This document shows, one piece after another, positions 7,603 to 44,751 of a stretch of DNA of 64,000 bases. The notes beneath the pieces were generated by a model, which ran no database searches, had not been told where the DNA came from, and worked only from the letters and a program-made list of their open reading frames with translations. The DNA is from a virus (taxonomy: Duplodnaviria > Heunggongvirae > Uroviricota > Caudoviricetes). Numbering within the stretch: position 1 is the first letter of the stretch; the number at the start of each line of letters is the position of its first letter. Position numbers and translations under genes: made by a program. Location: IMG/VR virus record IMGVR_UViG_2718218135_000001, positions 32,001 to 96,000 of that record; one strand, given 5' to 3'.

Positions 7603-8142
7603 TTATTTGTCCAGCACTTTGTACTTGTTCGTAATCAAACGCTCACCCTTTCTGGTAACTGTAAAACCAAACGGCGCTTTGCTGTTTTTACGTAACACGC
7701 TTTCAGCGAGCGCTTCATCGGTAGGTTGTATAGTTGAATTGTCTATCCAGTCGATGAGGGTAAGAAAGTTTAAAAGTTTCATGCTCGTGACGCCCATCTT
7801 ACAGGCTATGTCACGGACGGTACGAATCTGCCTGCATTTTGTTTCATGTGCTGCGATAGGTGTCTTTGAATTGTTTGGTGTCAGTAACGTATCCAGTGTA
7901 TTAAAGAACCCCCTTGCGGATTCAGACTTAATAAGACCTGAGTCGCTCATATCACACGCGATACGGTACAGAATATTGCTGTTGTTCATGAAGGGATAGT
8001 TCTCAACGAATCTGACGAATGCTTGTGCATTTTTCTCTCCGCATTTGTAATCCAGCGGATTATCTACGCGCCAGAAAAATGCACTGTTGTTTTTTGCGTC
8101 AAAGATATCAACAAATGGTAGTTCAGCTAAATAGTTCATCAT
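7603..8142 (-). CDS. hypothetical protein (179 aa)
   Basis: ORF; start codon lies inside a 12-bp inverted repeat (8137-8175). Confidence 0.5.
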   Translation of the reverse strand: MMNYLAELPFVDIFDAKNNSAFFWRVDNPLDYKCGEKNAQAFVRFVENYPFMNNSNILYRIACDMSDSGLIKSESARGFFNTLDTLLTPNNSKTPIAAHETKCRQIRTVRDIACKMGVTSMKLLNFLTLIDWIDNSTIQPTDEALAESVLRKNSKAPFGFTVTRKGERLITNKYKVLDK

Positions 8143-8204
8143 GTGCTCCTTTGTAACTTGACGAGCACATGATGAACTACGAAATAAGGGGAAAAAGTGG
8201 AAGA

Positions 8205-10109: not shown

Positions 10110-10808
10110 ATGGATTGTATCAAAAATATGGATGTGAAAATTACGATTCTACAGGTGGAAGTCGCGAACCTGCGTCCGAACCCCTGGAATACCAACTCCG
10201 TTGGGGCGCAAAACTTCGAAAAACTGAAAGGTTCCATCGAAAAGTTGGGCTTTTTTAAGCCAATTCTGGCGCGAGAGCTGGACGGCGGCATTTTTGAGAT
10301 TCTCGGTGGCGAACATCGCTGGCGTGCCGCGATGGAGCAGGGCATTTCAACGGTTCCCGTAATGTCGGTGGGAAAAATTAACGACCTGGTGGCCAAACAG
10401 ATGTCTCTCGTCGATAACGAGCGCTACGGCGAAGACGATCAGATCGCTTTGCAACGCTTAATCGAAGAAATTCAGTCTGAAATTGACTACCGGTTGTCTG
10501 ATATCGCCCCGTATGACGACGAAATGGCGGCAACGCTCGCCAAAGCATCCGTTATCGATCTTGAAGCGCTGGAAGCGCTCTCCCGCGGCGATGACGAGCC
10601 GGTCGGTGAGGACAAACGCGAGAAAATCGAGCGAGTCGGTGCTGAACACCAGACGATGCGCTTCAAGGTGACGTTCGATGCGTCAGATCGCGTCGCCGAT
10701 ACCATCAAAACCATCATCAAAGAGCAGGGAATCAATACCGGTAACGAAATGGAGAACGCCGGGGAAGCCTTGGTGTGGCTGGTCGACTACTACAAGGAGC
10801 GTATGTAA
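10110..10808 (+). CDS. ParB-like nuclease-domain protein 1
   Basis: ParB/Srx N-domain signature LRPNPWN ... GGEHRWRAA; start choice uncertain. Confidence 0.7.
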   Translation: MDCIKNMDVKITILQVEVANLRPNPWNTNSVGAQNFEKLKGSIEKLGFFKPILARELDGGIFEILGGEHRWRAAMEQGISTVPVMSVGKINDLVAKQMSLVDNERYGEDDQIALQRLIEEIQSEIDYRLSDIAPYDDEMAATLAKASVIDLEALEALSRGDDEPVGEDKREKIERVGAEHQTMRFKVTFDASDRVADTIKTIIKEQGINTGNEMENAGEALVWLVDYYKERM

Positions 10809-11476
10809 TGACCAAGAACTTTGAAATCGTATATCGAAACCCGGCAGAACTTATCCCGTATGAGATGAACGCCAAAAAACATGACGAACAGCAGATCCAC
10901 GACCTGGCGGCTGCCATCAAAAAGCGCGGTTTTGACCAGCCGATCACGGTCGACAAGCACGACGTCATCATTACTGGTCACGGTCGTCGCGAGGCGGCAC
11001 TTCTGGCTGGTCTGGAGCGTGTGCCTGTCATCGTTCGCGACGATCTGAGCGAAGAAGAAGTGAAGGCGAAGCGTCTTGAAGACAACCGCCTGGCCAGTAT
11101 TGACTACGACGCCATCAAATTGCAGCAGGAACTGGAGTCCCTGGTGCTGGGTGACGTTGAGGTCTTTGGTTTTGAAGAGCGAGAGCTGAACGTGCTTGTT
11201 GGCAGCATGACCGAAGAGATGGAAACAGGCTCTCTGGTGCTCGATCTGGGTGAAGAGACGGAACGCCAGAAAGAAGAGCACACCGAGATCAGTCGCGAAG
11301 TGGCCTCTGAAGAAGTCCGAGTCATCGACGTATTGGGCTTTAAAACGCTCCCTGCTGGCTCTGCCATTGTGGTTGGGGATTTGCTTGCCCACATGGAAGA
11401 AATTACGGGAGAAAGCGGGGTAGACGCTTTCGTGGCGTATGCGGAGAAAGTTTCCTCTGGGGAGCTGGCTGCATGA
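10808..11476 (+). CDS. ParB-like nuclease-domain protein 2
   Basis: HGRREAA arginine motif; start overlaps upstream stop (TAATG). Confidence 0.7.
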   Translation: MTKNFEIVYRNPAELIPYEMNAKKHDEQQIHDLAAAIKKRGFDQPITVDKHDVIITGHGRREAALLAGLERVPVIVRDDLSEEEVKAKRLEDNRLASIDYDAIKLQQELESLVLGDVEVFGFEERELNVLVGSMTEEMETGSLVLDLGEETERQKEEHTEISREVASEEVRVIDVLGFKTLPAGSAIVVGDLLAHMEEITGESGVDAFVAYAEKVSSGELAA

Positions 11477-12111
11477 GCAAATACACCATCAACGTATCGT
11501 TTCAGACCCGCGTGAACAAAACCACGCGCACGCTGGAGATTGCCGAATCGTTCGGTCTTGGCCTGGACGAAAAAGAGTGGACGCTTTACGACAATCTGGA
11601 GCTGGAAGTGAAGCAGGGCGATGTGGTGTACATCACCGGCCAATCCGGTTCCGGTAAATCCGTTGTGCTGCGCGAGCTGCAACGCCAGATGAAGGATGAA
11701 GGGCTTTCTGTAGCCTCCATCGATGACTTTGCCTTCGACAATGAGGTTAACGTCATTGACCAGCTGGGCAAAACCACCAGCGAAGCGCTGGGGCTGCTGT
11801 CTATGGCCGGATTGAATGACGCCTATCTCTTTGTGCGTAAGCCATTCGAGATGTCTGACGGCCAGAAATACCGTCTCAAGATCGCCAAGCTGATCGAGTC
11901 CGGCGCGAAAGTCTGGGCTGCCGACGAATTTGGCGCTGTTCTCGACCGTGTAACCGCCCAGGTTGTGGCGTCGAACCTCCAGCGTGCCGCCCGTAAGGTT
12001 GGTGCGACGGTAATGGTGGCGACGACCCACGAAGACCTGAAGAACGCGCTGCGCCCGGATATGCAGATCACCAAGCACTACAAAGAACGCGTGAAGGTGG
12101 AATATGCCTGA
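11473..12111 (+). CDS. compact ABC-type ATPase (212 aa)
   Basis: Walker A GQSGSGKS, signature-like SDGQKYRL, Walker B VWAADEF, H-loop TTHE; ATGA overlap with upstream gene. Confidence 0.7.
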   Translation: MSKYTINVSFQTRVNKTTRTLEIAESFGLGLDEKEWTLYDNLELEVKQGDVVYITGQSGSGKSVVLRELQRQMKDEGLSVASIDDFAFDNEVNVIDQLGKTTSEALGLLSMAGLNDAYLFVRKPFEMSDGQKYRLKIAKLIESGAKVWAADEFGAVLDRVTAQVVASNLQRAARKVGATVMVATTHEDLKNALRPDMQITKHYKERVKVEYA

Positions 12112-12358
12112 TTTGAAGATCGTAGAGCTGAAGCCATCGAAAGAGGCTGACAACAACAACGTTGAAGTCATCCGCCTGCTGGAAGAAGCACTCCAGTACG
12201 CCAGAGAAGGCAAAAGCCAGAGCCTGGCACTGCTGATGATCAACAACGACGGCAGTGTGCTGGATTGCTGGCATAACGGTGGGCGTCCATACGTCATGGT
12301 TGGGGCGATAGAATCGCTTCGCCTGGACTTCATCAATGCCAATATCGAGCGTAGGTGA
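12104..12358 (+). CDS. hypothetical protein (84 aa)
   Basis: overlaps neighbours on both sides. Confidence 0.45.
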   Translation: MPDLKIVELKPSKEADNNNVEVIRLLEEALQYAREGKSQSLALLMINNDGSVLDCWHNGGRPYVMVGAIESLRLDFINANIERR

Positions 12359-13254
12359 TCGACATGACAGGCATCATCATCAAACGCTACCGCCCGGAAG
12401 AGTTCCCGCGTCATCTGGACTTTCTGGAGCGTATGACCGTTACCAAAGGCACGGTTGAAGACTGGCACGCGCTGAAGTCGCTGCACTACAAGACGGATGG
12501 TAAGCCGTTTGCGCCAACGTATTATCGCTGCGAACTGGACGACCGGCTGGTGGGCGTCGTGGTTATGGCTTACCCGAAACTGCTGCTGGCGCCTCGCCAT
12601 CGCATGTTTCCTAAGCTGAAGCCAACCACCAATACCACCGTGGCCAACCAGTATTGGGGGCGGTACGTGAACAACAACTTTGCGGTGATCAGCCGTTCCG
12701 TTGTGGACACTCAGTACCGCGGTGTCGGCGTCTCCTATCGAATGATTAACCTGGTTAGCAGGATGCATAACCGGCCAATCATCGAGATTCAGTCGTCCAT
12801 GAGCAAATACAACCCGTTCGCCATGAAAGCAGGGTTCCAGTTCATACGTCCGGAGCGTCCGAAGAGCTATGAGAGTGCGTTGCGTGTTTTCCAGCGCCAT
12901 TTTCGCTCCGACCCTGGAGACAACGAAGCGATCGTCAAAGAGCTGTTCGCCATGAGTGAGTCTCGCCGTCGTCGTGCGCTGCGCGATCTGGTCGCGGACT
13001 ACCACAAGAACAGTTCCCTGGCCAAAGCCGGGCGTAATCGTGGCACGACGATTCAGGATATTGCCGACAGTCTGGTGGACGAGGCCAGCATCGTGAAGTT
13101 GCTCAAGGATATTCACAACCTGAGCTTCACGTCTCCGCTGTATGGCGTGTATCGAAACCCGGACTTCGGTCGTCAGTTGCCTGACACGCTGCCACTGCTG
13201 GCATTCGATAAGCAGCCTTTGAATAAACCTCTTGAAATTGCATTACCGGCATAA
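12355..13254 (+). CDS. hypothetical protein with GNAT-like Q/R-x-x-G-x-G motif (299 aa)
   Basis: QYRGVGVS resembles acetyl-CoA-binding motif A; start GTG 12355 or ATG 12364. Confidence 0.5.
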   Translation: MIDMTGIIIKRYRPEEFPRHLDFLERMTVTKGTVEDWHALKSLHYKTDGKPFAPTYYRCELDDRLVGVVVMAYPKLLLAPRHRMFPKLKPTTNTTVANQYWGRYVNNNFAVISRSVVDTQYRGVGVSYRMINLVSRMHNRPIIEIQSSMSKYNPFAMKAGFQFIRPERPKSYESALRVFQRHFRSDPGDNEAIVKELFAMSESRRRRALRDLVADYHKNSSLAKAGRNRGTTIQDIADSLVDEASIVKLLKDIHNLSFTSPLYGVYRNPDFGRQLPDTLPLLAFDKQPLNKPLEIALPA

Positions 13255-13263
13255 GGATTTGCC

Positions 13264-13530
13264 ATGACGTTGACCGATAAACAAAAAGACATCATCAAAA
13301 CCATCAATTTAGGCCATGAGCGTGGGTATCTGCTCGATCTGGACGAGCTGCTTGAGGTTCTGCCGTACAAAACGACCAAACAGAGTATGCAGTTCTCTAT
13401 CCGCGCACTGGTGAAAAAGGGGCTGGTGGAGAAGGGAATGTGCCGCCAGCGCGGCGATTCAGGTTATCACCGTCGCACGCTGGGACTGACCACGTTAGGT
13501 CGTGCAAGAGCCAAATTACTGGTGATGTAA
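13264..13530 (+). CDS. small basic protein, possible winged-helix DNA binder (88 aa)
   Basis: ORF; basic C-terminus; sits directly upstream of the perfect inverted repeat. Confidence 0.45.
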   Translation: MTLTDKQKDIIKTINLGHERGYLLDLDELLEVLPYKTTKQSMQFSIRALVKKGLVEKGMCRQRGDSGYHRRTLGLTTLGRARAKLLVM

Positions 13531-13551
13531 ACCGGTCTGGGAGCCAGATTA

Positions 13552-13615
13552 AGAACCTGCTTCCGTATATATAATTAACTAAGTGATTAATTAAATATAT
13601 ACGGAAGCAGGTTCT
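13552..13615. repeat. perfect 21-bp inverted repeat with 22-bp AT-rich spacer
   Basis: agaacctgcttccgtatatat ... atatatacggaagcaggttct; one arm repeated exactly at 43887-43908. Confidence 0.85.
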
Positions 13616-13647
13616 GAAGGCTCCCCAGCCCGATTTTAAACACCCAG

Positions 13648-13662
13648 AAAACAAATTGGTTA
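13648..13662. promoter_or_regulatory. degenerate AAACAA box
   Basis: aaaacaaattggtta. Confidence 0.35.
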
Positions 13663-13673
13663 GGCACAGAATT

Positions 13674-13687
13674 AAACAAGTTGTTTA
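13674..13687. promoter_or_regulatory. AAACAA-N2-TTGTTT operator-like palindrome
   Basis: aaacaagttgttta, 40 bp upstream of the TerS start, followed by hairpin gagcgca-agga-tgcgctc. Confidence 0.5.
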
Positions 13688-13726
13688 GGAGCGCAAGGAT
13701 GCGCTCTGAGTGTTTTAGAGGGACCT

Positions 13727-14368
13727 ATGACTGTAGAAAAAGACGAGAGCAAAACTCGCCTGACACCAGCTGAGTGGGCAGAAGCCGAAGCGAAATGGAC
13801 TTCTGGCGAATACACACTCTCCAGGCTGGAGGAAGAGTACGGCATTCGTCGTGAAACGCTCTCCAGACATTTCAAAAAGCGTGGATTAGAGAAAGGCGCG
13901 GACTCCGTTGGGAAGATGGTGCGCGAGTCGCTCAAATCCGACGCAGAGCTGCGTGCGAAGGCGCGTGCAGAGAAAATCGAAGAGCGCCGGACTCGTTACG
14001 ACGATTGGGCGTTCGCACTCGGTCGTATGGTGATGCATGAGGTGGCCATAGCCAAGAAGGACGGCAGGCCACTGGCAGCCATCGAAGATGACCTGAAGAG
14101 TCTCCAGCGTGCCAGCGGCACACTTGCTAAGTGCTTCGAAATATCGTCGAAAGCGCTCGGTATGGATCGCGTGGAGAACGAGGACGACGAAATCCCGAAC
14201 CTGGTATTTGGCGAACTTACGCCTTCCCAGGTGGCGCAGCTGCGTAAGGAAGATGATGAGCCGGATCTGATTGATGACGATCTGCTTGAGTCACTCGAAG
14301 AGGAAGCACTGAGCGAAGCTGAGGGCGATTCTGAAGCGTCTGGTGATGAAAGTGATGGGAGCGTCTGA
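13727..14368 (+). CDS. terminase small subunit (putative)
   Basis: 213 aa immediately upstream of TerL; acidic C-terminal tail. Confidence 0.55.
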   Translation: MTVEKDESKTRLTPAEWAEAEAKWTSGEYTLSRLEEEYGIRRETLSRHFKKRGLEKGADSVGKMVRESLKSDAELRAKARAEKIEERRTRYDDWAFALGRMVMHEVAIAKKDGRPLAAIEDDLKSLQRASGTLAKCFEISSKALGMDRVENEDDEIPNLVFGELTPSQVAQLRKEDDEPDLIDDDLLESLEEEALSEAEGDSEASGDESDGSV

Positions 14369-38614: not shown

Positions 38615-39195
38615 TGGCATTCAGAATGAGTGAACAACCACGGACCATAAAAATTTATAATCTGCTGTCCGGAACTAATGAATTTATTGGTGAAGGTGAT
38701 GCATATATTCCGCCTCATACAGGTCTGCCAGCAAACAGTACCGATATTGCACCGCCAGATATTCCGGCAGGCTTCGTGGCTGTTTTCAACAGTGATGAGG
38801 CATCGTGGCATCTCGTTGAAGATCATCGGGGAAAAACCGTCTATGACGTGGCTTCCGGCGACGCGTTATTTATTTCTGAACTCGGTCCGTTACCGGAAAA
38901 TGTTACCTGGTTATCACCGGATGGGGAATATCAGAAGTGGGACGGCACATCCTGGGAGAAGGATGAGGAAACAGAAAAATTGTTTCAGGTACGGGAAGCG
39001 GAAGAAACAAAAAAAAGTCTGATGCAGGTAGCCAGCGAGCACATTGCGCCACTTCAGGATGCTGTAGATTTGGAGATTGCAACGGAGGAAGAAGCATCGT
39101 TGCTGACTGCATGGAAGAAGTATAGAGTTTTATTGAACCGCATTGACACATCAACGGCACCGGATATTGACTGGCCAACAATACCAGCAGAGTAA
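38614..39195 (+). CDS. tail fibre assembly protein (Tfa-like)
   Basis: 193 aa directly after fibre gene, TAATG overlap. Confidence 0.75.
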
Positions 39196-42923: not shown

Positions 42924-42975
42924 AAATTATGCATTGGCGCAATGTACGCGCCAATGCATAAGTACAGTGTCAGCT

Positions 42976-43743
42976 TTATGCCGCGCTAACACTATGTTCA
43001 TTCCTAACCACCCCAACCTTCACAAAAGGGCTGCCGTAGCTTGGTGGCTTCTTGATTAATTTGCCTACATACAGTTTTCTAATATGCTCATCGGCTATTC
43101 TGCCAACAAATTCATAACGTTTTGTGTCGGGGCCAAGAGCTATATCCCTTGTAAAGTACTGCTGAGAACCGGCTTTGACCCAGCATTCAATCTGATAAAC
43201 TTCCATTATCAGGCCCCCATATGTAGCGTAGGCATATTTGAGATTCTCGTCTCTTGGAACCTTTGCCCATACGCCACGCGTAGCTTCATATAATGCCAGA
43301 GCGGACATTCCTGACTTGTAGGTGCTGTTTAGCAGGAAGGCAAGACCGGCGTGCTCAGGAGCAATTTCAGTTTCCTCTTGCAGCACTAAGTGATGGTAGG
43401 CGTCCAGTGATATTCTGCCCATCATGGAACCACTTCCTCGTACCTTATTCGTAAGCTCTCCGACACCCATAAGGTCGATGCATGTCGCCTCAACAAGTTT
43501 GGCTGTGGTTTCATCCATACCATGACGAAGAATATCTATGCCTAATTTTTTATTAGCCAAAAGTTCTTTGATCCGCATGGATTTGGGAGAGTCATCGGGA
43601 TACTTGATGTGATCGAGACAACGAGTCGATTTGCCTTTTCCTATGTAAAACGGTCTTTTCATCTTGTCTTCTGTATCATAGAGACAGTAAACATAGTATT
43701 TAGCCTTATCCAATGATCTCGCGTATACCGATAAATCGTCCAT
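42976..43743 (-). CDS. GIY-YIG nuclease-domain protein
   Basis: N-terminal YYVYCLYD ... RPFYIGKGKSTRCLDH. Confidence 0.6.
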   Translation of the reverse strand: MDDLSVYARSLDKAKYYVYCLYDTEDKMKRPFYIGKGKSTRCLDHIKYPDDSPKSMRIKELLANKKLGIDILRHGMDETTAKLVEATCIDLMGVGELTNKVRGSGSMMGRISLDAYHHLVLQEETEIAPEHAGLAFLLNSTYKSGMSALALYEATRGVWAKVPRDENLKYAYATYGGLIMEVYQIECWVKAGSQQYFTRDIALGPDTKRYEFVGRIADEHIRKLYVGKLIKKPPSYGSPFVKVGVVRNEHSVSAA

Positions 43744-43886
43744 TATTGCATCTCTTAGCTACTGACTAATGCGTTCTATTTTACACATAAGTTTTTAATC
43801 AATTTTACAGGCTCAAAGTGTAGAGCTTCTGGGTGTCTAAGACGACAAGTTATGCCTGTTTCTGTATATAAATAATAAGTAACTTA

Positions 43887-43908
43887 TTAAATATATACGG
43901 AAGCAGGT
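43887..43908. repeat. third copy of the 22-bp element ttaaatatatacggaagcaggt
   Basis: exact match to one arm of the 13.55-kb inverted repeat. Confidence 0.85.
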
Positions 43909-43990
43909 CTTTTAAAAGACACCCACCAGAACAACTCCCTTCCGTTTCCACTTCCCAAAAATATCTCCAGTCGCTATGATTCGCTCACTT

Positions 43991-44025: not shown

Positions 44026-44751
44026 GTGAGCCAGATCTTCTTCAACACTATCGACAATGACCAGTACGATTTCATGACAGAGTGGAATACCGCTGTTATG
44101 GACAAGTGGGTCGCTGAAAACATTGGTTTGTCGCGCTGTAAAGACGAGGCTGAACTCTTCGAGACGAAGTGGTTTGATTACCGCGACATGCACCCACTTA
44201 TGGCCACATGCCTTTTCACTGAGGCATACAAGCGCCAGTACTCATACATCATGCTGTCGCATGGTCGTGAACACTATGAGACGGCTCCATTCACAACCGG
44301 TCTGAAGCGTGTGCCATATCAGGAGTTGTCGACGGTCAACAAAACGTCGCTCTGGAAAGCACGCCAGTTTGCTGACCGCTATTGCTGCTCATACGACTAC
44401 TTTATCTCCACCGTTCTTTCCGCAGCTGCACGACGGCTGTGGGACAAATTACCGCGCCCCCAGCATCTCTGGCAGCCCGAGTTGATCGAGATATTCGAAG
44501 AGAAGTTAGCCAAACGCGCTGTAACCCGTCTGGATGACTCTCTGGTGAGTTTTAAGCATCTTGGAGACATGCAGCGTGACCCGATTCAGGAACGCTATTT
44601 TGAGTGGATTCTGGAGCGTCTGCGTGGCATTACCCGAGATAAACGCATCCGTATCATCTTCTCCGCTGTCTGGTTGATGGAAATCGTGCCTGAGCGTGTG
44701 ATTTACGCGCACTTCCCGGAAGAACTGGAAGAAGCACGGCGATTCTGTTGA
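44026..44751 (+). CDS. hypothetical protein (241 aa), possible replication accessory
   Basis: GTG start; directly upstream of helicase. Confidence 0.45.
   Translation: MSQIFFNTIDNDQYDFMTEWNTAVMDKWVAENIGLSRCKDEAELFETKWFDYRDMHPLMATCLFTEAYKRQYSYIMLSHGREHYETAPFTTGLKRVPYQELSTVNKTSLWKARQFADRYCCSYDYFISTVLSAAARRLWDKLPRPQHLWQPELIEIFEEKLAKRAVTRLDDSLVSFKHLGDMQRDPIQERYFEWILERLRGITRDKRIRIIFSAVWLMEIVPERVIYAHFPEELEEARRFC

What the first reader, a model, noticed from the sequence alone, without database searches (positions are those of the whole stretch)
13552..13615. Perfect 21-bp inverted repeat before the packaging operon, with an exact 22-bp copy of one arm at 43.9 kb
agaacctgcttccgtatatat / atatatacggaagcaggttct flank a 22-bp AT-rich spacer directly after a small possible DNA-binding gene and before TerS. 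The element ttaaatatatacggaagcaggt recurs exactly at 43887-43908, beside the GIY-YIG gene. Candidate roles are a pac/packaging recognition site, a regulator site, or a nuclease target.
Basis: seen in the sequence. Interest (0 to 1): 0.55.

Follow-up and report, generated by a model that had tools for sequence, protein, structure and literature searches.

The report
Three-copy operon-boundary hairpin cassette
The inverted repeat is real and is one of three conserved copies of a hairpin cassette found at the head of each large operon in SSU5/pHCM2/pMT1-type phage-plasmids; it looks like a transcription boundary and control element, not a packaging site or a nuclease target.

Summary
There is a 21-bp perfect inverted repeat (24 bp at 96%) at 13549-13618, and an exact 22-nt copy of its right side at 43887-43908. 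That second site is itself an imperfect hairpin.

The window is an SSU5-like phage-plasmid. Complete relatives (SSU5, pJN2-26, Cyrano) each carry three copies at syntenic positions:
- A, before terS
- B, before the DnaB/primase replication operon
- C, after a DNA methylase (outside this window)

The gene-proximal half (TTAAATA-N4-CGGAAGCAGG plus a CTCCCAGA box) is the conserved, directional core. In distant relatives it changes sequence together with its partner arm. It also occurs alone, 45-55 nt before the first gene.

B and C carry a T-tract after the hairpin; A never does. In published Cyrano lysogen RNA-seq, expression drops about 9-fold (up to about 100-fold) exactly across B.

The GIY-YIG neighbour is incidental, because the DNA left of B is a mosaic cargo slot. 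Nothing supports a unique pac site.

Best reading: a terminator/insulator hairpin built on a conserved promoter or operator core for the three lytic operons. The factor that recognises it is unknown and I found no description in the literature. Interest is moderate.

The parts
13534..13545 (+). Site A, outer-left box GGTCTGGGAGCC. It is the inverted copy of the CTCCCAGA box and forms the outer stem with 13619-13625.
   Evidence: Sequence; RNA fold; conserved as GGTCTGGGAG in site A and C orthologues.
13549..13572 (+). Site A, left (gene-distal) arm of the inverted repeat. It is an inverted, less conserved copy of the core.
   Evidence: Left-arm variants are more numerous than right-arm variants.
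13573..13594 (+). Site A, 22-nt AT-rich spacer. It is partly self-complementary (apical stem) and its length varies among relatives.
13591..13618 (+). Site A, right (gene-proximal) arm containing the conserved directional core U (TTAAATATATACGGAAGCAGG). No T-tract follows it.
   Evidence: The right arm is CGGAAGCAGG in 21 of 26 distinct A sites, and 0 of 26 have a T-tract. The core recurs alone in distant lineages.
13619..13630 (+). Site A, outer-right box GGCTCCCCAGCC (CTCCCAGA-type box). It is the partner of 13534-13545.
13640..13652 (+). Site A, second CCAGA-type box (ACACCCAGAAAAC) in the leader.
   Evidence: conserved in A orthologues.
13688..13717 (+). Leader hairpin GGAGCGCAAGGATGCGCTCT followed by GAGTGTTTTA, just before the terS ribosome-binding site. 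It looks like an attenuator or terminator and is part of the roughly 116-nt leader between the cassette and terS (ATG at 13727).
   Evidence: Terminator-like hit. GCGC/GCGC to GCAC/GTGC changes in relatives are compensatory. The arm-to-gene distance is fixed.
43828..43838 (+). Site B, outer-left TCTGGGTGTCT. It forms the outer stem with 43917-43925.
43855..43880 (+). Site B, left arm. It is imperfect, and its three mismatches to the right arm are all G-U wobbles on the + strand.
43882..43907 (+). Site B, right arm with core U (the exact copy, 43887-43908).
43908..43913 (+). Site B, T-tract (TCTTTT) directly after the hairpin. This is the intrinsic-terminator signature.
   Evidence: At least 5 T in the 9 nt after the arm in 38 of 41 distinct B sites. 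Expression drops across the orthologous site in the Cyrano lysogen.
43917..43931 (+). Site B, outer-right AGACACCCA plus a CCAGAA box.
43952..43980 (+). Sigma-70-like promoter candidate (TTCCCA-17-TATGAT) between cassette B and the first replication-operon gene (start at 44026).
   Evidence: 9 of 12 matches, not above the shuffle expectation. TATGAT/TATCAT is conserved in B orthologues.

Best explanation
The repeat at 13.55 kb is copy A of a three-copy 'operon-head cassette' that defines the SSU5/pHCM2/pMT1 phage-plasmid family. Each cassette lies in the intergenic gap in front of one of the three long, co-directional gene blocks: A before packaging, structure and lysis; B before replication; C before the remaining block. 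The functional core is the gene-proximal half. It is a directional unit of about 45 bp, made of TTAAATA-N4-CGGAAGCAGG followed 10-20 nt later by a CTCCCAGA box. I infer that this unit is the promoter, or a promoter-proximal operator, through which one phage-specific factor switches all three lytic operons. The gene-distal half is an inverted copy of the core. In transcripts arriving from upstream the two halves fold into a hairpin with a stem of more than 20 bp. At B and C the hairpin is followed by a T-tract and acts as an intrinsic terminator, or insulator. This keeps lysogen-expressed plasmid and cargo genes from reading into lytic genes. Copy A, the one in the finding, has the hairpin but never the T-tract. 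It therefore probably does not terminate efficiently and serves mainly as the regulatory core and leader of the late operon. Shown: the three-copy census, synteny, polarity, T-tract distribution, coordinated change of the arms, lone cores in distant lineages, and the RNA-seq drop at B. Inferred: promoter or operator function, and the existence of a sequence-specific trans-acting factor.
For: (1) A profile search finds exactly three full elements in SSU5 and in pJN2-26, and two in the window. Cyrano also has A, B and C. The positions are syntenic. (2) In protein-anchored, sequence-unbiased sets the element is present in 73 of 75 terS loci and about 78 of 80 replication-gene loci (two of the 80 automated calls at B were false matches inside the downstream gene), and 62 of 69 methylase loci scored positive, of which about 58 are the canonical element. 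(3) The gene-proximal arm is more conserved than the distal arm, and the TTAAATA side always faces the downstream gene. (4) The distance from the arm to the first codon is fixed: 114-117 nt at A (94-95 in one lineage) and 116-122 nt at B. (5) In distant lineages both arms change together (GCCTTGCTCCCATA / TATGGGAGCAAGGC) and the flanking box changes to CACTGCGG. The core also occurs without any partner arm, 45-55 nt upstream of terS or another first gene. In one lineage two cores converge on a bidirectional terminator. (6) A T-tract of at least 5 T in 9 nt follows the hairpin in 38 of 41 B sites, 19 of 24 C sites and 0 of 26 A sites. (7) In published RNA-seq of the Cyrano lysogen, CYRAN_28-30 read 50-89 while CYRAN_31, directly after hairpin B, reads 6.2. 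In other conditions the values are log2 about 10 against about 3. Only the hairpin and its T-tract lie between the two genes. (8) At B the sequence left of the hairpin is mosaic, while the hairpin and downstream sequence are conserved. (9) The + strand hairpin is more stable than the - strand hairpin in 36 of 41 B sites, and C-G, U-G and U-A states all occur at the same stem position.
Against: No transcription start or 3'-end map exists, so promoter or operator function is inference only. Within the SSU5 lineage covariation is weak: 89.6% of cells are paired against 88.5% in shuffles, and the score is 0.139 against 0.121, reached by 11 of 500 shuffles. At C the - strand is often the more stable one. 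The simple consensus scan calls no sigma-70 promoter at A and no terminator at either hairpin, although its stem and loop limits exclude hairpins this long. In the convergent arrangement (L472) the gene-proximal unit points away from the gene, which fits a protein-binding site better than a promoter. Sites A and C lie between genes that are all silent in the lysogen, so the RNA-seq says nothing about them. No candidate binding protein was identified.
Confidence: 0.55

Rival explanations
1. These are plain intrinsic terminators. Their similarity is kept up only by gene conversion among three direct repeats. There is no specific trans-acting factor and no promoter or operator role.
For: T-tracts at B and C. 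RNA-seq drop at B. Very stable + strand hairpins. Wobble states on the + strand at B.
Against: Site A, the finding itself, never has a T-tract (0 of 26). The arm sequence is nearly invariant across Salmonella, E. coli, Klebsiella, Enterobacter and Yersinia plasmids whose flanks differ. Polarity is conserved. Lone half-elements with no hairpin keep the same sequence in distant lineages. The distance to the first codon is fixed.
Confidence: 0.12
2. It is a palindromic operator bound on duplex DNA by a dimeric or tetrameric repressor or activator that contacts both arms at once. On this view the hairpin potential is irrelevant.
For: There are three copies at the heads of three operons that are silent in the lysogen. 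The arm sequence is strongly conserved. The arms change together in distant lineages. Two candidate regulators lie nearby: a small gene of unknown function (phrog_900) directly upstream of A, and a FljA-like repressor.
Against: Half-site spacing varies from 41 to 47 bp, and reaches about 70 bp in one lineage, so helical phasing is not kept. Single halves occur. The T-tracts at B and C and the asymmetry between arms are left unexplained.
Confidence: 0.1
3. It is a packaging recognition (pac or cos) site for the TerS/TerL encoded just downstream. Either all three copies work as alternative headful start points, or only copy A is used.
For: Copy A lies 116 nt upstream of terS. The SSU5 GenBank record is cut at the boundary between the loop and the right arm. 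TerL is of the T4-like Terminase_6N type, which I associate with headful packaging from general knowledge rather than from a test here; headful packaging would tolerate several start sites.
Against: There are three copies, and two are far from packaging genes. The conserved core faces the downstream gene at all three sites. B behaves as a transcription stop. Contig ends in IMG/VR often fall at these repeats, for example L168, L182 and L333, so the SSU5 start point looks like an assembly boundary. The Cyrano record starts at the same point as the SSU5 record, and the paper compares Cyrano genome-wide with SSU5, so the shared start is probably a layout convention. No end mapping has been published.
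Confidence: 0.07
4. The cassettes are origins, or DNA-unwinding elements, for lytic replication. A T4-style R-loop origin, made of a promoter next to an AT-rich tract, is one version.
For: The centre is about 35 bp of almost pure A+T flanked by GC-richer arms. Copy B sits directly before the DnaB-like helicase and primase genes. The phage encodes UvsW, UvsY, gp32-like and RecA-like proteins.
Against: Cumulative GC skew rises monotonically, with no polarity switch at any copy. The T-tract pattern, the fixed distance to start codons and the RNA-seq stop point to transcription. Nothing tested here bears directly on replication.
Confidence: 0.08
5. It is the target or homing site of the neighbouring GIY-YIG nuclease, or a mobile palindromic element of the MITE or REP type.
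For: A GIY-YIG gene (42976-43743, minus strand; LEM-3-like GIY-YIG domain) lies about 110 nt from hairpin B in this window.
Against: SSU5 has a DUF2971 gene there instead. Only a minority of B loci share the GIY-YIG-type left flank. Copies A and C have no nuclease neighbour. There are only three copies, always at the same syntenic positions.
Confidence: 0.03

Closest known systems
Rho-independent (intrinsic) terminators used as operon insulators
   Same: A stable RNA hairpin followed by a U-tract at B and C, with a sharp drop in downstream RNA at B in vivo.
   Different: The stem is far longer (over 20 bp plus an outer stem) and its upper half is AT-rich. The stem sequence is conserved across sites and host genera. 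Copy A has no U-tract. Half of the hairpin also exists on its own in relatives.
Lambda tI/sib: a terminator embedded in a longer RNase III hairpin
   Same: The architecture is two-tier. An inner hairpin with a U-tract can be enclosed by an outer stem whose 3' strand is made only in read-through transcripts.
   Different: There is no evidence here for RNase III cleavage or retroregulation, and no sequence similarity. This comparison rests on recalled knowledge and was not tested.
Phage P1 C1 operators: asymmetric 17-bp sites scattered at lytic promoters, single or as inverted pairs
   Same: Both are plasmid-prophage systems. A directional core occurs singly or as inverted pairs in front of lytic operons that are silent in the lysogen.
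   Different: There are three sites rather than about 17. The sequence is unrelated: the C1 operator consensus gives 0 matches in the window. No C1 homologue was identified.
Lambda nut / HK022 put: conserved cis elements at the start of long operons that enable processive antitermination
   Same: A conserved sequence plus a box lies at the head of each very long operon (25-45 kb). At A a terminator-like hairpin sits in the leader, just before terS.
   Different: There is no sequence or structural similarity to boxA/boxB or put. It is unknown whether the core is transcribed from its own promoter. No N-like or Q-like gene was recognised.
pac/cos sites upstream of terS
   Same: Copy A sits immediately upstream of terS.
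   Different: The element is not unique in the genome. Its orientation and T-tract logic follow transcription. No end data exist.

Membership tests
Intrinsic (Rho-independent) terminator | Stable stem-loop in the transcribed strand | tested here: met
   Site A folds at -50.4 kcal/mol (z = -10.4) and site B at -42.6 kcal/mol (z = -8.3) as + strand RNA.
Intrinsic (Rho-independent) terminator | U-tract directly 3' of the stem | tested here: not met
   This row refers to site A, the finding. None of 26 distinct A sites has at least 5 T in the 9 nt after the arm; in the window the sequence there is GGTTCTGAAGG. The feature is met at B (38 of 41; window 43908-43913 TCTTTT) and at C (19 of 24).
Intrinsic (Rho-independent) terminator | Loss of downstream transcript in vivo | tested here: inconclusive
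   Met for the B orthologue in Cyrano: 54.6 falls to 6.2, and up to about 100-fold in other conditions. Uninformative for A and C, because the genes on both sides are at background in the lysogen.
pac/cos packaging site | Virion DNA ends or packaging series start at the site | not testable with these tools
   No end-mapping data were found. The start of the SSU5 record at the arm boundary is ambiguous.
pac/cos packaging site | Single site per genome, next to the terminase genes | tested here: not met
   Adjacency holds for A only. There are three copies per genome, and B and C are 30 kb or more from terS.
Homing-endonuclease (GIY-YIG) target | Consistent linkage of the site with the nuclease gene | tested here: not met
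   SSU5 and pJN2-26 have other genes upstream of B. The left flanks are mosaic across 80 loci. A and C have no nuclease neighbour.
Palindromic operator of a dimeric DNA-binding protein | Two half-sites at fixed spacing and helical phase | tested here: not met
   Spacing ranges from 41 to 47 bp within the lineage and is about 70 bp in L499/L501. Lone halves occur in L495, L504 and L482.
P1 C1-type operator set | Match to the C1 operator consensus ATTGCTCTAATAAATTT | tested here: not met
   0 matches with up to 3 mismatches in the window. The resemblance is architectural only.
Telomere-resolution site (N15 telRL type) | Single perfect palindrome plus a protelomerase gene and a linear prophage | tested here: not met
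   There are three copies. The pJN2-26 and pMT1 records are circular, and no protelomerase is annotated in SSU5 or pJN2-26. The gene test rests on annotation only.
Mobile palindromic repeats (REP/MITE) | Many copies at non-syntenic intergenic positions | tested here: not met
   Three copies at fixed syntenic positions in all genomes examined.
Any described RNA family (Rfam 15) | Score at or above the family gathering threshold | tested here: not met
   Nothing at either site at gathering thresholds. The only sub-threshold hits are to eukaryotic miRNA-precursor models, which simply reflect a long hairpin.

The most novel reading that the evidence does not exclude
The roughly 45-bp directional core (TTAAATA-N4-GGA(A)GC..GG followed by a CTCCCAGA or CACTGCGG box) is the recognition element of a phage-encoded factor that has not yet been identified. 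The factor could be a repressor, an activator, a sigma-like or RNAP-modifying protein, or an RNA-binding antiterminator. Through only three sites it would switch the whole lytic programme of the SSU5/pHCM2/pMT1/pKpn phage-plasmids. The hairpin form would couple termination of lysogenic read-through to control of the next operon. That would be the master lysis-lysogeny switch of a clinically widespread plasmid family, and a new cis-element class.
Probability: 0.25. Interest if true: 0.7.

Novelty: new variant of a known kind. Interest (0 to 1): 0.45.

Why it matters
SSU5-like phage-plasmids include pHCM2 of S. Typhi, pMT1 of Y. pestis and hundreds of Klebsiella, E. coli and Enterobacter plasmids; 786 PLSDB records match the site-A region. 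Some carry resistance genes. Almost nothing is known about how they keep about 100 kb of lytic genes silent or how they switch them on.

A conserved cassette present exactly three times, at the head of each large operon, gives a concrete and small target set for finding the regulator, for example by pull-down, ChIP or reporter assays. It also explains how plasmid-maintenance and cargo genes can be expressed next to lethal lytic genes.

On the practical side, the repeats break short-read assemblies and mark the boundary of the cargo-insertion slot.

Tried and rejected
- **pac/cos by record ends.** The SSU5 record is cut at the arm boundary. However, the Cyrano record starts at the same point as the SSU5 record, and IMG/VR contigs often end at these repeats. 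I read the start point as an assembly or layout artefact.
- **Literature.** No paper holds either arm sequence. Nothing was found on SSU5 termini, palindromes or terminators.
- **Y. pestis pMT1 sRNAs sR082 and sR083**. These lie in the pMT1-specific region and are unrelated to the element.
- **Rfam.** No family matches; only sub-threshold miRNA-like hairpin hits.
- **Replication origin by GC skew.** The skew is monotonic and shows no switch.
- **T4-type late-promoter regulon.** TATAAATA occurs only twice on the + strand of the window, so I rejected it.
- **P1 C1 operator consensus.** 0 matches.
- **Genome-wide enrichment of the CCAGA box.** No clustering was apparent outside the cassettes; no shuffle control was run.
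- **Sigma-70 consensus scan.** Nothing at A, and one unremarkable hit downstream of B.
- **The 88-aa upstream protein.** No Pfam family and no PDB relative. The single-sequence AlphaFold model has pLDDT 51, which is unusable, so I ran no fold search. The 241-aa first replication-operon protein also has no Pfam or PDB match.
- **Viral-contig scan with TATGGGAGCAAGGC.** This returned almost only chance matches. The degenerate pattern used worked.
- **Third weak half-site at 63397-63415.** It lies inside a coding region and no counterpart was detected at the matching position in the profile search of pJN2-26 (the SSU5 orthologous position was not checked), so I did not count it.

Full report
**Observation.** The sequence shows AGAACCTGCTTCCGTATATAT at 13552-13572 and its exact reverse complement at 13595-13615, separated by a 22-nt AT-rich spacer. 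The repeat finder extends the arms to 24 nt at 96% complementarity, 13549-13572 and 13595-13618. The 22-mer TTAAATATATACGGAAGCAGGT at 13591-13612 recurs exactly at 43887-43908. Chance does not explain this. The 20-mer gives 3 hits against 0.00 expected in shuffles, and the 17-mer gives 5 hits against 0.05 expected.

The second site is not a lone arm. It is the right arm of a second, imperfect hairpin at 43855-43880 / 43882-43907. As + strand RNA both regions fold into two-tier hairpins, with an outer stem, an internal loop, a long inner stem and an AT-rich apex. The energies are -50.4 kcal/mol (z = -10.4) and -42.6 kcal/mol (z = -8.3).

**What the window is.** The region matches Salmonella phage SSU5 at 97.6% and other SSU5-like phage-plasmids at about 82%. 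In PLSDB, 786 plasmids match it, including Y. pestis pMT1-type, Salmonella, Enterobacter, Klebsiella and E. coli plasmids. Upstream of site A lie two ParB_N proteins, an ABC-type ATPase, two unknown proteins and an 88-aa protein of unknown family (phrog_900). Downstream lie TerS (phrog_867) and a T4-like (Terminase_6N) TerL.

Site B lies between a minus-strand GIY-YIG gene and a 241-aa protein followed by a DnaB-like helicase. Nearly all genes in these genomes are on one strand.

**Copy number and position.** A profile built from the elements finds exactly three full copies in SSU5: at the record junction, at 33.45 kb and at 78.3 kb. It also finds three in pJN2-26 (38.5, 74.8 and 15.3 kb) and two in the window. 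Cyrano has the same three. The positions are syntenic:
- A lies before terS.
- B lies before the 241-aa/DnaB/primase operon.
- C lies after a DNA methylase and before a small gene. It falls outside this window.

I collected loci through the neighbouring proteins rather than through the repeat, so the sample is not biased by the repeat sequence. The element is present in 73 of 75 terS loci and about 78 of 80 replication-gene loci (two of the 80 automated calls at B were false matches inside the downstream gene). At the methylase loci 62 of 69 scored positive; a few of these were false matches or distant-lineage variants, so about 58 carry the canonical element.

**The GIY-YIG link is incidental.** In SSU5 and pJN2-26 the gene upstream of B is different. 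Across the B loci the sequence to the left of the left arm falls into many unrelated classes. The hairpin, the T-tract and the downstream leader are conserved. The cassette therefore belongs to the downstream operon and marks the edge of a cargo slot.

**Anatomy and polarity.** In gene orientation the consensus is:

GGTCTGGGAG - N5-7 - TTTnAGA - (A/G)CCTG(C/T)TTC(C/T)GTATATATAAATA(A/C)TAAGTnACTTATTAAATATATACGGAAGCAGG - N10-20 - CTCCCAGAC

Often a second CCAGAA box follows. Three further points stand out:
- The gene-proximal arm is the more conserved one. CGGAAGCAGG occurs in 21 of 26 distinct A sites and 31 of 41 distinct B sites, against 4 to 7 variants of the left arm.
- The TTAAATA side always faces the downstream gene.
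- The distance from the arm to the first codon is fixed. It is 114-117 nt at A (94-95 nt in a lineage that lacks one of two direct repeats) and 116-122 nt at B. In SSU5 it is about 118 nt at C.

**Distant relatives.** Where the methylase is only 59-73% identical, the arms differ in sequence but stay complementary: GCCTTGCTCCCATA / TATGGGAGCAAGGC, and GCCGTGTTCCCATA / TATCGGAGCACGGC. There the flanking box is CACTGCGG instead of CTCCCAGA.

In the same genomes the right half alone (TAAATACTAT[G/C]GGAGCA[C/A]GGC) occurs with no partner arm, 45-55 nt upstream of terS or another first gene (L495, L504). In other lineages it is followed by a canonical terminator (L482). In L472 and L492 two units converge on a bidirectional terminator.

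So the basic unit is a directional core of about 45 bp plus its box. The palindrome is one way of arranging two such units.

**Hairpin selection.** Within the SSU5 lineage the stem is mostly invariant, so covariation is weak. 89.6% of cells are paired against 88.5% in shuffles, and the covariation score is 0.139 against 0.121, reached by 11 of 500 shuffles. RNAalifold finds 3 of 10 pairs with changes on both sides.

Still, C-G, U-G and U-A states occur at the same stem position. pJN2-26 has fully compensated arms at site C, and partly compensated arms at B. At B the + strand hairpin is more stable than the - strand one in 36 of 41 distinct sequences. At C the picture is mixed. Half-site spacing varies from 41 to 47 bp. 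That argues against a rigid dimer on duplex DNA and is harmless for a hairpin loop.

**Terminator evidence.** A T-tract of at least 5 T in 9 nt follows the right arm in 38 of 41 B sites, 19 of 24 C sites and 0 of 26 A sites.

The supplementary RNA-seq table for the Cyrano lysogen (PMC9928086) gives CYRAN_28, 29 and 30 (ParA, a ParB-like protein and a cargo gene) at 50, 89 and 55. CYRAN_31, the first gene after hairpin B, is at 6.2, which is background. In other conditions the values are log2 about 10 against about 3. In Cyrano only the hairpin and TCTTTT lie between those genes, 24 nt after the CYRAN_30 stop codon.

Genes on both sides of A and C are silent in the lysogen, so those sites cannot be judged from these data.

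**Site A specifically.** It has the hairpin and the core but no T-tract. Its leader is about 116 nt long and is conserved. The leader holds a second CCAGA box, two 16-nt direct repeats (13649-13664 and 13674-13689), and a covarying terminator-like hairpin (13688-13707 followed by GTGTTTTA) that abuts the terS ribosome-binding site. No sigma-70 consensus promoter is found there. Late-operon transcription is therefore probably dependent on a phage factor.

**Interpretation.** The data fit a transcription-unit boundary cassette. A conserved, directional promoter or operator core serves each of the three lytic operons. In this lineage it is paired with an inverted copy, so that upstream transcripts fold into a terminator or insulator hairpin. 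This hairpin is effective at B and C and lacks the U-tract at A.

Shown:
- census
- synteny
- polarity
- spacing
- T-tract pattern
- coordinated arm change
- lone cores
- the expression drop at B

Inferred:
- promoter or operator function
- a sequence-specific factor

The rivals are plain terminators, a duplex-DNA palindromic operator, a pac site, a lytic origin, and a nuclease target or mobile repeat. They are weighed in their own section of the report. None explains the whole set of observations as well.

**pac/cos.** The SSU5 record is cut between the loop and the right arm, and the Cyrano record starts at the same point. The Cyrano paper compares that genome with SSU5 and reports no end mapping, so the shared start is probably a layout convention. 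Several IMG/VR contigs end at or inside these repeats. No paper reports end mapping. TerL is of the T4-like type, which I associate with headful packaging from general knowledge. Such a site, if any, could be near terS, but nothing singles out the hairpin.

**Comparison with known systems and novelty.** The cassette works like an intrinsic terminator at B and C. In layout it resembles lambda tI/sib, and in logic it resembles the scattered single or paired C1 operators of plasmid-prophage P1. It fails the sequence and feature tests for membership in those families. No Rfam family matches, and no paper contains the sequence. I rate it a new variant of a known kind of element, of moderate interest. 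Its value is that it gives three precise handles on the unknown lysis-lysogeny control of a very widespread phage-plasmid family.

Noticed in passing
window 60332-60351: TACTGTTTATAAATACAGTA is a near-consensus LexA (SOS) box (CTGT-N8-ACAG). It lies about 30 nt upstream of a 367-aa integrase-like gene (60379-61482). This may bear on the ciprofloxacin induction reported for the relative Cyrano.
   Followed up: partly
window 13688-13717: A terminator- or attenuator-like hairpin (GGAGCGCAAGGATGCGCTCT followed by GAGTGTTTTA) overlaps the terS ribosome-binding site. Relatives show compensatory changes in the stem (GCGC/GCGC to GCAC/GTGC).
   Followed up: partly
window 13649-13664 and 13674-13689: Two 16-nt direct repeats, AAACAA[A/G]TTG[G/T]TTAGG, lie between the hairpin and terS. 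They are conserved in relatives, and the pJN2-26 lineage has only one copy. They could be TerS or regulator binding sites.
   Followed up: no
window 42927-42961: A perfect 14-bp inverted repeat (TTATGCATTGGCGC / GCGCCAATGCATAA) sits directly after the small ParB-like gene of the parA operon. It could be a parS site or a terminator.
   Followed up: no
window 8132-8179: A perfect 17-bp inverted repeat (TAGTTCATCATGTGCTC / GAGCACATGATGAACTA) with a 14-nt spacer, at a position that by collinearity with SSU5 (about 97.8-97.9 kb) lies near the FljA-like repressor gene SSU5_121. I did not check the gene content of the window here.
   Followed up: no
window 63397-63415: A half-site resembling the core (TAAATATACAGAAGCAGGC) is followed 20 nt later by CACCCCAGAAT. 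It lies inside an acidic-repeat ORF that runs off the window. The profile hit is weak (E about 0.02) and no counterpart was detected at the matching position in the profile search of pJN2-26; the SSU5 orthologous position was not checked.
   Followed up: partly
window 38957-39155 and 59235-59306: An Rfam IS009 match (189.6 bits) and a tRNA gene (tRNA-Asn in the SSU5 annotation). Several long inverted repeats surround the tRNA (58718-59391).
   Followed up: no
window 42976-43850; loci L128-L207: The DNA between the partition genes and hairpin B is a mosaic cargo slot. It holds a GIY-YIG gene here, a DUF2971 gene in SSU5, and other genes elsewhere. The junction lies right at the left arm of the hairpin.
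   Followed up: yes
window 10775-13530: A conserved block of ParB_N protein(s), an ABC-type ATPase, an 84-aa protein, a 299-aa protein and an 88-aa protein lies directly upstream of terS. Its function is unknown, and it is silent in the Cyrano lysogen.
   Followed up: partly
L124 46897-47340 (SSU5_121): The annotated 'transcriptional repressor' belongs to the FljA family (Pfam Flag1_repress, E = 1.4e-80). From recalled knowledge, not tested here, FljA in Salmonella binds RNA. That makes it a candidate for acting on the conserved operon leaders.
   Followed up: no
Cyrano OV696614 40268-40822 (CYRAN_43), from PMC9928086 supplement: A minus-strand hypothetical gene is expressed about 700-fold above the prophage background in the lysogen. 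This could reflect an abundant regulatory RNA or an immunity gene.
   Followed up: no
IMG/VR loci L168, L182, L333, L139, L159: Contig ends fall at or within a few hundred nt of the cassettes, so the three-copy repeat appears to break short-read assemblies of these plasmids.
   Followed up: partly
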